Assembly (NCBI GenBank): GCA_964491115.1
Contig: CAZBEW010000004.1
Span: forward strand, 1 to 61,416
Source of the DNA: an uncultured Pseudomonadales bacterium
GTDB lineage: Bacteria > Patescibacteriota > Microgenomatia > UBA1400 > PJMF01
Length of the DNA stretch: 61,416 nt
Direction: 5' to 3'
Shown here piece by piece: positions 5,992 to 9,208 of this stretch. Each line of letters opens with the position of its first letter. Position 1 is the stretch's first letter. The position numbers and the translations under genes were made by a program. The notes under the pieces are model-generated. The model was not told where the DNA came from and searched no databases. It saw only the letters and a list, made by a program, of their open reading frames with translations.

Positions 5992-8922
5992 CTACAAGTC
6001 TTGCAAACCTTCAATTTGGGCTCTCACTAATTGACTATTACTTTTCTCTTCAATCATTTTAGTAAACTGATTGGGCCAGGTTCTTAAATAAACCTTGGTT
6101 TTTTCATCGACTGCTAAGTTGGCTTCTTTACGCCAGGTTTGAATTCGCCTAATGATGATTCTGGCTTCACCCTCTGCCTTGAGGTCTTCGTTGAGCTCTA
6201 AATCAAAGTTTGCCTGCATGTCGGCTGTAGTTTCTTGACCCCAGTTAATATCTTTGACATTTAACTCTTGTTTGAGAATCGCTTCTAATTCAGCATTACC
6301 CATAAAACTAGCCGCTTTATTAAAGCTTACCGAAGCTAAAGGTTGACGCAGAGGCATTTTTGCGATTTTTCGCTGAGCATGACCCAACTCCACCAATTGT
6401 CTTAATTCAGCCATCTGTTTTTCTAATTCCAGATCTTGATATGATGGGATAATTTTTGGATAGTCGCATAAATGCACCGATTTATCACTTGTATGTAGTT
6501 GTTGATAAACAATTTCGCTAAAAAAAGGTGTGAGTGGAGCAAATAATTGAGCTGATACATCAAGCACTGTCGCAAAAACCTGAGAGGCTTGGTCACTTTG
6601 ATTACTCTTGAAGCGATCTCTAGATAGTCTCAAATACCAAGTGGAGAAATCATTGATAAAAGGGGCTACTAGTCGAGTCGCGCGCATCACATCGAAATTA
6701 TCTAAATATGTACTTAATTGTTCGCTTAGGCTGCTAAGCCGTGATAATAACCAGCGATCTAAAACATGGTTGATTTTTGTCACTTTTTGTAAATCTACTT
6801 TCTCAAGATTTTTTTGAGCAAAACTTTGATAAAAAGCCAAAATATTCCACCAAATCAAAAATACTCGTCGGCGCAAATCTGCCACTTCTTGTTCAGCAAA
6901 ATTTAAAGTTTCAGCCTTAACTGCAGCTGATGACAATAGATATAGGCGCAAGCTATCGGCTCCATATTTATCAATAATTAACTCTGGCTCTGGATAATTA
7001 TTCAAGCGCTTGCTCATTTTTTTGCCATCACTGGCCATAATTAAACCAGTACACATCACATTGGCAAAAGCACTACTCGCTGTTTTATTAAGACTTGATT
7101 GCTCTTTTTCATTAGCCATAGTTAAAGCTGTAGCCAAAACGTGCAGCGTGTAAAACCAACCTCGAGTTTGATCCTGACCTTCAGCAATAAAATTAGCTGG
7201 AAAATGTTGGTCAAATAAATCTTGATTAGCAAAAGGATAATGAAATTGAGCATAAGGCATAGCTCCAGATTCAAACCAACAATCTAAGACTTCTGGCAAA
7301 TGCTTGAATTCCTTGCCATCTTTTGTAATCACAATCTGATCAACAAACTCTTTGTGTAAATCATCAAGTTTATGTCCAGACAAAGATTCCAATTCCTGAC
7401 TACTGCCAACACAGATTAATTCACCATCTTCACTCTGCCAGAGAGGAAGGGGAGTTCCCCAAAAACGATTGCGTGAAATGGCCCAATCCCTGGCATCAGC
7501 CAACCAATGACCAAAACGACCTTCTTTAATATGTGCTGGTTGCCAATTAATAGCCTGATTATTCTGCAATAATTGCTCTTTAAAAGAACTGACTGCTACA
7601 AACCAGGAACTGGTCGCGTAATTTAATAAAGGCGAATCACAACGCCAGCAATGAGGATAACTATGGGTAAATTGTTTTTTAGCAAATAATAATGATTTTT
7701 TGGCTAAATATTGAATAATTTTAATATCGGTAGCTTGGACTTGGTCTTTCGGTTTTACCTCAAGTCCAGCAAAATCCGTCACTGCTTTAGTAAAGCGCCC
7801 ACTCATATCTACATGTTGAATAAAAAGTTTATTTTTGACTGCAGTATCAAGCTGTGAAAAATGCAATAAGTTTTCTCCAAGTCGGTAATCATCCTCACCA
7901 AAAGCTGGAGCTATATGCACAATACCCGTGCCTTCTTCTAAATTGACAAAATCTCCAGCTTGAATAGTAAAGATTAACTTTCTTGCTTCATCAGGTAAAT
8001 CTGGATCAGTATTCAAATTCATAAAATAAGGGAAAACTGCTTGATATTTAAAGCCAATTAAGTCTTGACCCTTAACAGTTTTAAGAATTTGATAGTCTTG
8101 ATCAGCAAAGACCGCTTCTAGACGTGATTTAGCTAAATAATATTTTTCTGGACGATCAGCGATTTTAACTAAAACATAATCTAGTGTTGGATTAACTGCC
8201 AAAAACATATTACCTGGCAAGGTCCAAGCCGTCGTTGTCCAACTGAGCAAATAGATCTCCTCATCCGTGTCTTCTAATTTGAATTTGACTGTCAGGGCCA
8301 AATCCTTAACATCTTTATAAGCCTGACTAACTTCAAAGTTTGACAGGGGAGTACTGCAATGAGGACAAATGTGCATGGCTTTATGACTTTGATAAATCAA
8401 GCCTTTATCAAAAAGTTCTTTAAACACCCACCAGACACTTTCCATATAGTTTTTATCCATCGTTTTATAGGCATTTTTCATATCAATGAATCGACCGATT
8501 CTATTGATAGTTTTTTCCCAATCCTCAGCATAAGTTAAGACCCTGGCTCGACAGGCTTGGTTGAAATTAGCTACGCCATAATCTTCAATCGCTTGTTTGT
8601 CTTTGAGTTTCAATTCTTGTTCAATTAAGTTTTCAATTGGTAAACCATGACAATCCCAACCCCAAACTCGCCGCACATATTTACCTCTCATCGTTTGATA
8701 ACGAGGGATTGAATCCTTAATCATCGATTGCATTAAATGACCGTAATGAGGTAAGCCGGTGGCAAAAGGAGGCCCATCATAAAAAGAAAAGTTTGCAGCC
8801 CCTTTTCTTTGTTCAAGAGATGATGCGAAGACTTGTTCTTTTTCCCAAAATTCTAGAACTTTTTCCTCTAGTAGAGCTAGGTCTGGTGCTTGTTTATAGT
8901 CTTTAATTTCAAGCTGTTTCAT
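5992..8922 (-). CDS. ileS: Isoleucyl-tRNA synthetase, type 2 (archaeal/eukaryote-like)
   Basis: YDGPPFATGLPHYGH, WDCHGLP, ISRNRFWGTPLP, EGQDQTRGWFY, KMSKR. Start placed at ATG 8922 because the ORF-track TTG 8940 lies in the terminator U-tract. Confidence 0.97.
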   Translation of the reverse strand: MKQLEIKDYKQAPDLALLEEKVLEFWEKEQVFASSLEQRKGAANFSFYDGPPFATGLPHYGHLMQSMIKDSIPRYQTMRGKYVRRVWGWDCHGLPIENLIEQELKLKDKQAIEDYGVANFNQACRARVLTYAEDWEKTINRIGRFIDMKNAYKTMDKNYMESVWWVFKELFDKGLIYQSHKAMHICPHCSTPLSNFEVSQAYKDVKDLALTVKFKLEDTDEEIYLLSWTTTAWTLPGNMFLAVNPTLDYVLVKIADRPEKYYLAKSRLEAVFADQDYQILKTVKGQDLIGFKYQAVFPYFMNLNTDPDLPDEARKLIFTIQAGDFVNLEEGTGIVHIAPAFGEDDYRLGENLLHFSQLDTAVKNKLFIQHVDMSGRFTKAVTDFAGLEVKPKDQVQATDIKIIQYLAKKSLLFAKKQFTHSYPHCWRCDSPLLNYATSSWFVAVSSFKEQLLQNNQAINWQPAHIKEGRFGHWLADARDWAISRNRFWGTPLPLWQSEDGELICVGSSQELESLSGHKLDDLHKEFVDQIVITKDGKEFKHLPEVLDCWFESGAMPYAQFHYPFANQDLFDQHFPANFIAEGQDQTRGWFYTLHVLATALTMANEKEQSSLNKTASSAFANVMCTGLIMASDGKKMSKRLNNYPEPELIIDKYGADSLRLYLLSSAAVKAETLNFAEQEVADLRRRVFLIWWNILAFYQSFAQKNLEKVDLQKVTKINHVLDRWLLSRLSSLSEQLSTYLDNFDVMRATRLVAPFINDFSTWYLRLSRDRFKSNQSDQASQVFATVLDVSAQLFAPLTPFFSEIVYQQLHTSDKSVHLCDYPKIIPSYQDLELEKQMAELRQLVELGHAQRKIAKMPLRQPLASVSFNKAASFMGNAELEAILKQELNVKDINWGQETTADMQANFDLELNEDLKAEGEARIIIRRIQTWRKEANLAVDEKTKVYLRTWPNQFTKMIEEKSNSQLVRAQIEGLQDL

Positions 8923-8938
8923 ATTGCCTTTTTTATAC

Positions 8939-8981
8939 AAAAAAACCTTATTAAATCTCGTTGCTTAACGGATTAATAAGG
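8939..8981 (-). terminator. Intrinsic terminator of the ileS leader
   Basis: CCTTATTAA/TTAATAAGG 9-bp stem (8973-8981 with 8946-8954) followed by 7 U. Confidence 0.85.
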
Positions 8982-9123
8982 CTTGCTAAAAAGCAAAGGT
9001 ACCAGCCCTATCACTACTCAATTTTGACTATTACGCAGTCACTGCGGCTCGTTCTACTTTTTGACACAATGATTTGTCAAATTTCTGCGAGCGCCTCGTC
9101 AGATGATGACTGACTCAAACGGC
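8939..9123 (-). ncRNA. ileS T-box riboswitch (ultrashort Stem I, AUC specifier, transcriptional terminator)
   Basis: Stem I gcc..GA-gtcag[tcATCat]ctgac-GA-ggc 9093-9123; Stem II GCTCG-CAGAAA...AAGTAGAA-CGAGC 9047-9092; IIA/B 9026-9046; T-box AGGGC-TGGTACC 8998-9009; terminator 8939-8981. Confidence 0.88.
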
Positions 9124-9142
9124 TTTATGCTTTAACAAAAAT

Positions 9143-9151
9143 ATTATAACA
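9143..9151 (-). promoter_or_regulatory. Extended -10 promoter of ileS leader
   Basis: TGtTATAAT, 19 nt upstream of Stem I. Confidence 0.7.
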
Positions 9152-9208
9152 GAAAATTGTTTACTAATTCATTTAAAGAAAATCGGGAAGGCTTATTGCT
9201 TTAGATAT

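What the first reader, a model, noticed from the sequence alone, without database searches (positions are those of the whole stretch)
8939..9151. Hybrid T-box: Actinobacteria-type ultrashort Stem I coupled to a transcriptional terminator
Seen on the minus strand, in order: extended -10 (9143-9151); a 31-nt Stem I with K-turn-like GA/GA pairs and a terminal loop ucAUCau carrying the Ile codon (9105-9107); Stem II GCUCG-CAGAAA-[UUUGACA/UGUCAAA]-AAGUAGAA-CGAGC with the S-turn strands; a IIA/B pseudoknot (CGCA/UGCG, GAC/GUC); only 16 nt with no evident Stem III; antiterminator AGGGC-UGGUACC-u-UUGCU/AGCAA-GCCUU. Its 3' strand overlaps a 9-bp terminator plus U7. UGGU would pair with the ACCA end of tRNA-Ile. 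Known: ultrashort-Stem-I ileS T-boxes are described from Actinobacteria, where they act translationally. Inference: a minimal transcriptional version in a probable CPR organism, which standard T-box models may miss.
Basis: partly seen in the sequence, partly recalled or inferred. Interest (0 to 1): 0.88.

Follow-up and report, generated by a model that had tools for sequence, protein, structure and literature searches.

The report
Short-stem ileS T-box with terminator
The RNA leader of the isoleucyl-tRNA synthetase gene in this tiny uncultivated (Patescibacteria/CPR) bacterium is a real tRNA-sensing T-box switch: it joins the miniature tRNA-reading arm known from mycobacterial translational switches to a transcription terminator and lacks a helix (Stem III) that reviews call indispensable.

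Summary
The 185-nt element (9123-8939) lies between ftsZ and ileS.

- **Structure:** on a structure-blind alignment of 12 relatives, 88% of cells pair and 23 of 37 pairs change on both sides; slid controls pair 30-43%. The IIA/B pseudoknot covaries too.
- **Specifier:** the loop codon tracks the gene: AUC before ileS, GUC before valS in other Patescibacteria.
- **tRNA match:** the genome's tRNA-Ile(GAU) has A73, which fits UGGU.
- **Default state:** the terminator (-14.8 kcal/mol, then U7) beats the antiterminator (-7.5). A hairpin plus U-run follows 55 of 73 related leaders, against 1-9 of about 72 at control offsets.
- **Relatives:** my covariance model matches 128 of 401 Patescibacteria genomes. 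It also finds actinobacterial ileS leaders, 9 of 11 of which lack a terminator.
- **Rfam:** RF00230 finds nothing here or anywhere in this genome.
- **Stem III:** this genus, and about half of the CPR matches, have no Stem III helix. Only a purine string remains.

I found no publication describing this. Recent papers call the ultrashort class translational and ileS-only. It is a new variant of a known kind, common in CPR. No regulatory function has been tested.

The parts
9143..9151 (-). Extended -10 promoter element, TGTTATAAT
   Evidence: Read. A TGnTAnAAT element sits 12-25 nt upstream of Stem I in nearly all related leaders. That leaves no room for a long Stem I. The strict -35/-10 consensus scan found no promoter, so this rests on the extended -10 alone.
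9093..9123 (-). Ultrashort Stem I. Base helix GCC/GGC. K-turn-like GA (9116-9115) opposite GA (9097-9096). Hairpin GUCAG/CUGAC with the 7-nt loop UCAUCAU.
   Evidence: On the MAFFT alignment all 5 hairpin pairs and 2 of 3 base pairs change on both sides. On 73 sequences the cells pair 95-98%. RNAfold reproduces the hairpin.
9105..9107 (-). Specifier codon AUC (Ile) in the apical loop, followed by purine A9104
   Evidence: AUC is invariant in every ileS leader found. GUC takes its place before valS. The genome encodes tRNA-Ile(GAU).
9047..9092 (-). Stem II with S-turn strands: CAGAAA (9087-9082) opposite AAGUAGAA (9059-9052)
   Evidence: In the 12-sequence alignment one G and two A of the AGAA strand (A44, A45 invariant; G43 in at least 90%) and A-UA-A of AGUAGAA are conserved. 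The basal helix pairs in 99.5% of cells and the distal helix in 92%. All 12 pairs change on both sides.
9026..9046 (-). Stem IIA/B pseudoknot. IIA is CGCA/UGCG. IIB is loop GAC (9040-9038) with GUC (9028-9026).
   Evidence: The IIB pairs switch between GAC/GUC, AGC/GCU, GGC/GCC, GUA/UAC and others.
9010..9025 (-). 16-nt single-stranded linker in place of Stem III. It keeps the purine string GAGUA (9019-9015).
   Evidence: No hairpin forms. GAGUA aligns with GAGCG/AAGCG, the RRRxG motif that flanks Stem III in actinobacterial and Saccharibacteria leaders. 36 of 73 CPR matches have the same short linker.
8978..9009 (-). Antiterminator. Helix A1 is AGGGC/GCCUU. The T-box bulge is UGGUACC (9004-8998). 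Helix A2 is UUGCU/AGCAA.
   Evidence: UGG-ACC is invariant. UGGUACC occurs in 70 of 73 matches. A1 and A2 covary. The helix evaluates at -7.5 kcal/mol. UGGU is complementary to A73-C-C-A of the genome's tRNA-Ile(GAU).
8939..8984 (-). Intrinsic terminator. Stem 8981-8967 with 8962-8946 (15 bp, one bulge), then U7 at 8945-8939. Its 5' arm reuses 8981-8978 of helix A1.
   Evidence: It folds at -14.8 kcal/mol, and the expression platform's minimum-energy fold is the terminator form at -20.1. Both of its basal G-C pairs use C8981 and C8980, which the antiterminator pairs with G9006 and G9007. Relatives carry an equivalent hairpin plus U6-7 with a different sequence. The simple scan did not report it, because its stem criteria did not fit.
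8927..8931 (-). Shine-Dalgarno sequence AAAGG, 4 nt before the AUG at 8922-8920
   Evidence: Read. It lies downstream of the U-tract and outside the terminator hairpin.
5992..8922 (-). Regulated gene ileS (isoleucine--tRNA ligase, 976 aa)
   Evidence: NCBIfam TIGR00392 ileS scores 850 bits against a cut-off of 621. Pfam finds tRNA-synt_1 and Anticodon_1.

Best explanation
This is a T-box riboswitch that controls ileS by transcription attenuation.

Transcription probably starts a few bases after the extended -10 element, near 9136. The first 98 nt (9123-9026) fold into a class III type decoder: a 31-nt Stem I that shows AUC in its end loop above a K-turn-like GA/GA motif, an S-turn Stem II, and the IIA/B pseudoknot. 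By analogy with the solved actinobacterial ileS complexes, Stem I and Stem II clamp the anticodon stem-loop of tRNA-Ile(GAU). The tRNA elbow is not touched.

If the bound tRNA is uncharged, its free A73-C-C-A end pairs with UGGU (9004-9001). That stabilises the weak antiterminator, which holds C8981 and C8980. The downstream hairpin then loses its basal G-C pairs next to the U7 tract, and RNA polymerase reads into ileS.

If tRNA-Ile is charged or absent, the stronger 15-bp terminator forms and transcription stops at 8945-8939.

Shown here: the anatomy, its conservation and covariation, the link between codon and gene, the fit to the tRNA, the energy ranking of the two folds, and the conservation of the terminator. 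Inferred: tRNA binding, charge sensing, and termination itself.
For: - **Anatomy:** every element is at the stated coordinates.
- **Fold:** RNAfold of the decoder alone returns the proposed Stem I and Stem II.
- **Covariation, structure-blind alignment of 12 relatives:** 88.1% of cells pair and 23 of 37 pairs change on both sides. 0 of 500 shuffles reach the score, and slid controls pair 30-43%.
- **Covariation, 73 leaders:** 89.4% paired, covariation score 0.715 against 0.189 shuffled, pseudoknot included.
- **Specifier:** AUC sits in the loop of every ileS leader found. GUC loops precede valS.
- **tRNA:** the genome's tRNA-Ile(GAU) has discriminator A73.
- **Energy:** terminator -14.8 against antiterminator -7.5 kcal/mol; the platform's minimum-energy fold is the terminator.
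- **Terminator conservation:** a hairpin plus U-run follows 55 of 73 CPR matches, against 8/71, 1/73 and 9/72 at control offsets. The terminator sequences differ between genera but each forms a hairpin plus U6-7.
- **Shine-Dalgarno site:** it lies outside the hairpin.
- **Link to class III:** model R1 matches 128 of 401 Patescibacteria genomes and retrieves actinobacterial ileS leaders of the same layout.
- **Independent hint:** Rfam RF00230 gives sub-threshold T-box matches (35-39 bits) to 3 of 13 related leaders.
Against: - No experiment or transcript data supports the switch.
- RF00230 gives no match here, even at E<=10.
- The terminator and antiterminator share only 4 nt (up to 7 with G-U and A-U extensions), and helix A2 can persist in both states. 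This is a smaller overlap than in textbook T-boxes.
- There is no Stem III helix. The review PMC7583486 calls Stem III indispensable for binding the tRNA 3' end.
- There is no elbow-binding platform. The same review argues that transcriptional T-boxes need it to capture tRNA fast enough.
- In two relatives (G012 with UGGC, G043 with UGGA) the bulge does not match their A73 tRNA-Ile. The expected discriminator covariation was therefore not seen.
- The 73-sequence alignment was fitted to the model, so its pair counts lean towards the structure.
Confidence: 0.8

Rival explanations
1. The same T-box decoder acts at translation initiation, wholly or additionally, as in Actinobacteria. In the tRNA-free state the Shine-Dalgarno region would be masked by pairing with the 5' strand of helix A2.
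For: When the platform is folded together with the start of the coding region, AAAAAGGCAA (8932-8924) pairs with UUGCUUUUU (8996-8988). The Shine-Dalgarno site then has P(unpaired) = 0.12. The closest known relatives of this decoder are translational (PMC10482949; 10.1101/2023.02.28.530422).
Against: The complementarity depends on GGCAA, which occurs only in this genome and its 97%-identical neighbour. Other species of the genus have GGGAA or GGAAA there. In the fold of the whole leader the Shine-Dalgarno site is unpaired. It lies outside the conserved hairpin, and that hairpin is followed by U7 in this genus and by a U-run in most relatives, which a sequestrator does not need.
Confidence: 0.1
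2. The structure is a conserved leader with a constitutive or protein-controlled terminator that no longer senses tRNA. That would make it a degenerate T-box relic lacking Stem III and the elbow platform.
For: Two elements that reviews treat as essential are missing: Stem III for 3'-end binding and the double T-loop platform for fast capture (PMC7583486). Two relatives have a bulge base that does not match their tRNA.
Against: A relic would not hold AUC, the purine after it, UGG-ACC and the S-turn bases invariant while its helices change by compensatory substitutions over a whole phylum. It also would not switch its loop codon to GUC exactly before valS. The purine string that flanks Stem III elsewhere is retained.
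Confidence: 0.07
3. The pattern is a chance resemblance in an AT-rich intergenic region.
For: Rfam's T-box model gives no match. The simple promoter and terminator scans found nothing.
Against: The model match here scores 147.6 bits, E = 1e-40, and is the only one in the genome. There is conservation and covariation upstream of ileS in dozens of genera.
Confidence: 0.01

Closest known systems
Class III ('ultrashort Stem I') ileS T-box riboswitches of Actinobacteria (Mycobacterium tuberculosis, M. smegmatis, Nocardia farcinica; Sherwood et al. 2015; structures 6UFG and 6UFM as cited in PMC7583486)
   Same: Both have a short Stem I with the AUC specifier in the end loop above a K-turn. Both have an S-turn Stem II, the IIA/B pseudoknot and a UGGN bulge, and both regulate ileS. 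A model built only from CPR leaders retrieves actinobacterial ileS leaders with this layout.
   Different: The output here is an intrinsic terminator with U7. In 9 of 11 actinobacterial matches there is no terminator, and GGAG lies in the downstream pairing region. This genus has no Stem III helix, whereas the actinobacterial leaders have a long one. The K-turn bulge is 4 nt (GUUU) rather than 3 (AUC). The host phylum is Patescibacteria. In CPR the same design also serves valS, whereas a 2023 preprint states that all ultrashort T-boxes regulate ileS (10.1101/2023.02.28.530422).
Canonical class I transcriptional T-box (Bacillus subtilis tyrS type; Rfam RF00230)
   Same: The logic is the same: uncharged tRNA stabilises an antiterminator that competes with a terminator ahead of an aminoacyl-tRNA synthetase gene. 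[quoted passage not shown]
   Different: There is no long Stem I, no specifier internal loop, no AG bulge or distal double T-loop platform, and no Stem III. RF00230 gives no match. The terminator overlaps only the 3' strand of helix A1.
Class II glyQS T-box (Bacillus subtilis, Geobacillus kaustophilus)
   Same: It is a naturally reduced transcriptional T-box, which shows that modules can be lost.
   Different: glyQS drops Stem II and keeps the long Stem I and Stem III. This element does the opposite: it keeps Stem II and drops the long Stem I and Stem III.

Membership tests
T-box riboswitch (general; Rfam RF00230) | A specifier codon that matches the amino acid of the regulated gene | tested here: met
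   AUC (9107-9105) precedes ileS (TIGR00392, 850 bits). AUC is invariant in related ileS leaders, and GUC precedes valS.
T-box riboswitch (general; Rfam RF00230) | A T-box bulge UGGN complementary to the tRNA NCCA end, within an antiterminator made of helices A1 and A2 | tested here: met
   UGGUACC lies at 9004-8998 between covarying helices A1 and A2. The genome's tRNA-Ile(GAU) has A73. Two relatives (UGGC, UGGA) do not match their A73 tRNA.
T-box riboswitch (general; Rfam RF00230) | A mutually exclusive terminator hairpin followed by a U-tract | tested here: met
   A 15-bp hairpin plus U7 shares 8981-8978 with helix A1 and folds at -14.8 against -7.5 kcal/mol. It is conserved in 55 of 73 relatives, against 1-9 of about 72 at control offsets.
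T-box riboswitch (general; Rfam RF00230) | A score at or above the curated threshold of the family model (93 bits) | tested here: not met
   No match at the gathering score, at E<=10 on 8850-9250, or anywhere in the genome. Related leaders reach only 35-39 bits.
T-box riboswitch (general; Rfam RF00230) | A long Stem I with a distal double T-loop platform that stacks on the tRNA elbow | tested here: not met
   Stem I is 31 nt and closes at 9123/9093 with covarying pairs, directly next to Stem II. The -10 element lies only about 20 nt upstream.
T-box riboswitch (general; Rfam RF00230) | A Stem III helix flanked by the purine string RRRxG ... AA | tested here: not met
   There are 16 unpaired nt between IIB and A1. 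Only the string GAGUA (9019-9015) remains. It aligns with GAGCG/AAGCG of leaders that have Stem III.
T-box riboswitch (general; Rfam RF00230) | Readthrough that depends on uncharged tRNA | not testable with these tools
   This needs in vitro transcription or in vivo reporters.
Class III (ultrashort Stem I) ileS T-box | The specifier in the end loop of a short Stem I above a K-turn, with no elbow platform | tested here: met
   The loop is UCAUCAU. GA (9116-9115) lies opposite GA (9097-9096) above GCC/GGC. The K-turn itself is inferred from sequence only.
Class III (ultrashort Stem I) ileS T-box | An S-turn Stem II and a IIA/B pseudoknot directly after Stem I | tested here: met
   The AGAA and AGUAGAA strands are conserved (6 of their bases invariant, G43 in at least 90%), the helices covary, and IIB covaries.
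Class III (ultrashort Stem I) ileS T-box | Sequence and structure similarity to actinobacterial members | tested here: met
   The CPR-built model R1 matches 14 of 201 Actinobacteriota genomes, once each, at up to 54 bits. The leaders read out upstream of ileS-like ORFs have the same layout.
Class III (ultrashort Stem I) ileS T-box | A translational output, with a Shine-Dalgarno sequestrator competing with an antisequestrator | tested here: not met
   The Shine-Dalgarno site (8931-8927) lies outside the conserved hairpin, which is followed by U7. The predicted Shine-Dalgarno pairing is not conserved within the genus.

The most novel reading that the evidence does not exclude
Patescibacteria carry a lineage-wide, undescribed class of minimal transcriptional T-boxes. 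These decode tRNA with only the Stem I / Stem II anticodon clamp. In about half of the cases they sense the 3' end without any Stem III helix. They still act within the short time window of transcription, and they serve at least ileS and valS. If so, neither the elbow platform nor Stem III is needed for co-transcriptional tRNA sensing, contrary to current reviews.
Probability: 0.55. Interest if true: 0.75.

Novelty: new variant of a known kind. Interest (0 to 1): 0.62.

Why it matters
Current reviews tie the module to the output. Long Stem I with an elbow platform goes with transcriptional control, because tRNA must be captured before the polymerase reaches the terminator. Ultrashort Stem I goes with translational control, where there is no time limit. 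The same reviews call Stem III indispensable for reading the tRNA 3' end (PMC7583486).

This leader and its many CPR relatives break both rules at once. They are about 146 nt from Stem I to the end of the antiterminator.

If they work as predicted, three things follow:
- They define the smallest natural transcriptional T-box.
- They give a compact scaffold for tRNA-responsive switches.
- They show that amino-acid sensing by tRNA charge is kept even in 0.8-Mb genomes. This genome has a single T-box, on ileS.

They also expose a blind spot in annotation. Rfam's model and TBDB's class II search, which was run only on Actinobacteria, both miss them.

Tried and rejected
- **Rfam scans.** I ran gathering and permissive E-value scans on the window, the leader and the whole genome. 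There was no T-box match, only chance matches to unrelated families.
- **Simple promoter and terminator scan.** It returned nothing. Its stem and loop criteria do not fit this long AT-rich hairpin, and there is no -35 element.
- **Discriminator covariation.** I expected G73 and U73 tRNAs in the genomes whose bulges read UGGC and UGGA. All seven tRNA-Ile(GAU) genes I checked have A73, so this test gave no support.
- **Original papers.** Sherwood 2015 and Vitreschak 2008 are not held in the library. I recall that Sherwood's abstract says 'many' rather than all actinobacterial ileS leaders were predicted to be translational. I could not check this, and it may narrow the novelty.
- **Literature searches.** Searches for T-box with Candidate Phyla Radiation, Saccharibacteria or Patescibacteria returned nothing relevant.
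- **Shine-Dalgarno masking by the 5' strand of helix A2.** I considered it and rejected it as the main mechanism, because the complementarity is species-specific.
- **A second T-box in this genome.** None was found, either by model R1 at E<=1 or by a motif-plus-terminator scan.
- **Loci returned by the genome search.** They are not re-oriented to the match. My first read of '-' strand matches looked at the wrong flank, and I corrected this.

Full report
**Observation**

The gene calls come from Pfam and NCBIfam and the sequence.

- An extended -10 element, TGTTATAAT, lies at 9151-9143.
- Stem I is 31 nt (9123-9093). Its base helix is GCC/GGC. GA (9116-9115) lies opposite GA (9097-9096). The hairpin GUCAG/CUGAC carries the loop UCAUCAU, with AUC at 9107-9105.
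- Stem II (9092-9047) carries CAGAAA opposite AAGUAGAA.
- Stem IIA is CGCA/UGCG. Its loop GAC pairs with GUC at 9028-9026.
- A 16-nt unpaired linker follows (9025-9010).
- The antiterminator is AGGGC-UGGUACC-U-UUGCU-UUUU-AGCAA-GCCUU (9009-8978).
- A hairpin (8981-8946) is followed by U7 (8945-8939).
- The Shine-Dalgarno sequence AAAGG (8931-8927) and the AUG (8922) lie downstream of the U-tract.

The only correction is that the terminator has 15 pairs with one bulge, not 9.

**Is it more than chance?**

- RNAfold of 9127-9026 alone returns the proposed Stem I and Stem II, with Stem IIA one pair longer.
- The whole leader folds with z = -3.0 against shuffles.
- I took the regions upstream of ileS from 60 genomes of the same genus, family and order and read them in the right orientation. 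Of 30 loci, 21 carry UGGNACC together with a hairpin whose loop reads NNAUCNN and whose stem differs between genera.
- On a structure-blind MAFFT alignment of 12 of these, my structure pairs 88.1% of cells. 23 of 37 pairs change on both sides, 0 of 500 shuffles reach the covariation score, and slid controls pair only 30-43%.
- The covariance model R1 built from 15 leaders matches this locus at 147.6 bits and nothing else in the genome.
- A 73-sequence alignment made with R1 pairs 89.4% of cells, with covariation 0.715 against 0.189 for shuffles. The IIB pseudoknot covaries too (GAC/GUC, AGC/GCU, GGC/GCC, GUA/UAC). That alignment was fitted to the model, so one search is the cleaner test.

**Organism and distribution**

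The genome is 0.8 Mb in 38 contigs. The nearest public records are titled Candidatus Paceibacterota, Pacebacteria or Woesebacteria. It is therefore a Patescibacteria (CPR) genome.

R1 matches just upstream of ileS in 31 of 79 named loci, including many Saccharibacteria. It matches none of the Chlamydiae, Rickettsiales or Actinomarina loci. It matches 128 of 401 genomes sampled across the phylum, and some genomes have 2-4 copies.

**Evidence that it reads tRNA-Ile**

- AUC followed by a purine is nearly universal in the ileS leaders.
- Copies of the same design with GUC in the loop sit directly before valS. The loop triplet therefore tracks the synthetase.
- This genome encodes tRNA-Ile(GAU) with discriminator A73, which is complementary to UGGU.
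- One expected signal failed. Two relatives have UGGC or UGGA, yet their tRNA-Ile also has A73.

**Evidence for a transcriptional output**

- The antiterminator evaluates at -7.5 kcal/mol and the terminator at -14.8. The platform's minimum-energy fold is the terminator, so the default state is OFF.
- The two folds compete for 8981-8978. These bases include both G-C pairs at the foot of the terminator, next to the U-tract.
- Terminators of other genera have unrelated sequences, but each forms a long hairpin followed by U6-7 at the same place.
- By a fixed rule, a hairpin plus U-run follows 55 of 73 CPR matches. The same rule finds 8 of 71, 1 of 73 and 9 of 72 at control offsets.
- The Shine-Dalgarno site lies outside the hairpin. 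A predicted pairing of the Shine-Dalgarno region with the 5' strand of helix A2 depends on bases found only in this species and its nearest neighbour.

**Relation to known classes**

R1 was built only from CPR leaders. It still retrieves one match each in 14 of 201 Actinobacteriota genomes. The best of these are ileS leaders with the same layout: GGC-AUC-GA-hairpin(CGAUCA)-GA-GCC Stem I, an AGAA/AGUAGA Stem II and the CGGG...CCCG pseudoknot. Unlike this element, they have a long Stem III and no U-run, and GGAG lies in the downstream pairing region. The decoder is therefore the class III or 'ultrashort' type, and the output differs.

The literature I could reach says the following:
- Classes III and IV mainly or mostly control translation (PMC10482949; 10.1101/2025.07.25.666911).
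- The ultrashort class is translational and all of its members regulate ileS (10.1101/2023.02.28.530422).
- Transcriptional T-boxes generally need the long Stem I platform, and Stem III is indispensable (PMC7583486).
- TBDB searched its short-stem model only in Actinobacteria (PMC7778990).

Rfam RF00230 finds nothing here. It gives only 35-39 bits, against a threshold of 93, for 3 of 13 related leaders. Text searches found no paper on T-boxes in CPR. I could not read Sherwood 2015.

**Stem III**

In this genus the 16 nt between IIB and A1 cannot form a helix. The same is true for 36 of 73 CPR matches. What remains is a purine string: GAGUA here, and RAGnR in general. It aligns with the GAGCG/AAGCG that precedes Stem III in actinobacterial and Saccharibacteria leaders. 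This is the feature of the window that departs furthest from published T-box rules.

**Earlier notes of this scan**

Earlier notes describe the same design in many other CPR genomes. They agree with what I found independently, but they are not evidence.

**Verdict**

This is a real T-box (about 0.95). It very probably acts by transcription attenuation (about 0.8). It is a new variant of a known kind, common in Patescibacteria and apparently undescribed.

Noticed in passing
L112, L114, L116, L117, L129, L130, L134 (also L118, L124, L127, L131, L133, L137): Other Patescibacteria carry the same short-stem T-box design with GUC followed by A in the Stem I end loop. The three checked (L112, L130, L118) sit directly upstream of valS by NCBIfam. 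The ultrashort class is therefore not restricted to ileS.
   Followed up: partly
L079:956-1200, L064:959-1200, L075:965-1200: Saccharibacteria ileS leaders keep Stem III, flanked by AAGCG ... AAA. The arm next to the U-run (for example CAAAAGAGAUGAUU in L079) pairs with the loop and 3' strand of Stem III. The terminator would then enclose the whole antiterminator and compete with Stem III rather than with helix A1, which is a different switching topology.
   Followed up: no
L027 (G012) and L029 (G043); tRNA loci L142 and L147: The T-box bulges read UGGC and UGGA, but tRNA-Ile(GAU) in these genomes has A73, as in all seven genomes checked. The variable bulge base is mismatched there.
   Followed up: yes
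L014, L019, L021, L028 (relatives in the same family or order): In these ileS leaders a second small hairpin lies between the specifier hairpin and the 3' strand of the Stem I base helix, giving a three-way junction. L021 and L022 also carry large insertions in helix A2.
   Followed up: no
window 8924-8932 with 8988-8996: The Shine-Dalgarno region AAAAAGGCAA is complementary over 9 pairs to the 5' strand and loop of helix A2 (UUGCUUUUU). It is predicted to be paired in the full-length platform fold. The match is specific to this species and its nearest neighbour.
   Followed up: partly
genome contig C3:37434-37510 (outside the window): Besides tRNA-Ile(GAU), the genome encodes a tRNA with anticodon UAU, called tRNA-Ile by ARAGORN. 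This is an uncommon way for bacteria to read AUA.
   Followed up: no
L162 (Actinobacteriota genome G534): This weak R1 match has a strong hairpin plus U7 terminator and sits upstream of an ORF that does not look like ileS. It may be a transcriptional T-box of another specificity in an actinobacterium.
   Followed up: no
L042:1-91: An Rfam DUF3800-V RNA match (52.8 bits, above its threshold) lies about 1 kb upstream of ileS in a Paceibacterota MAG.
   Followed up: no
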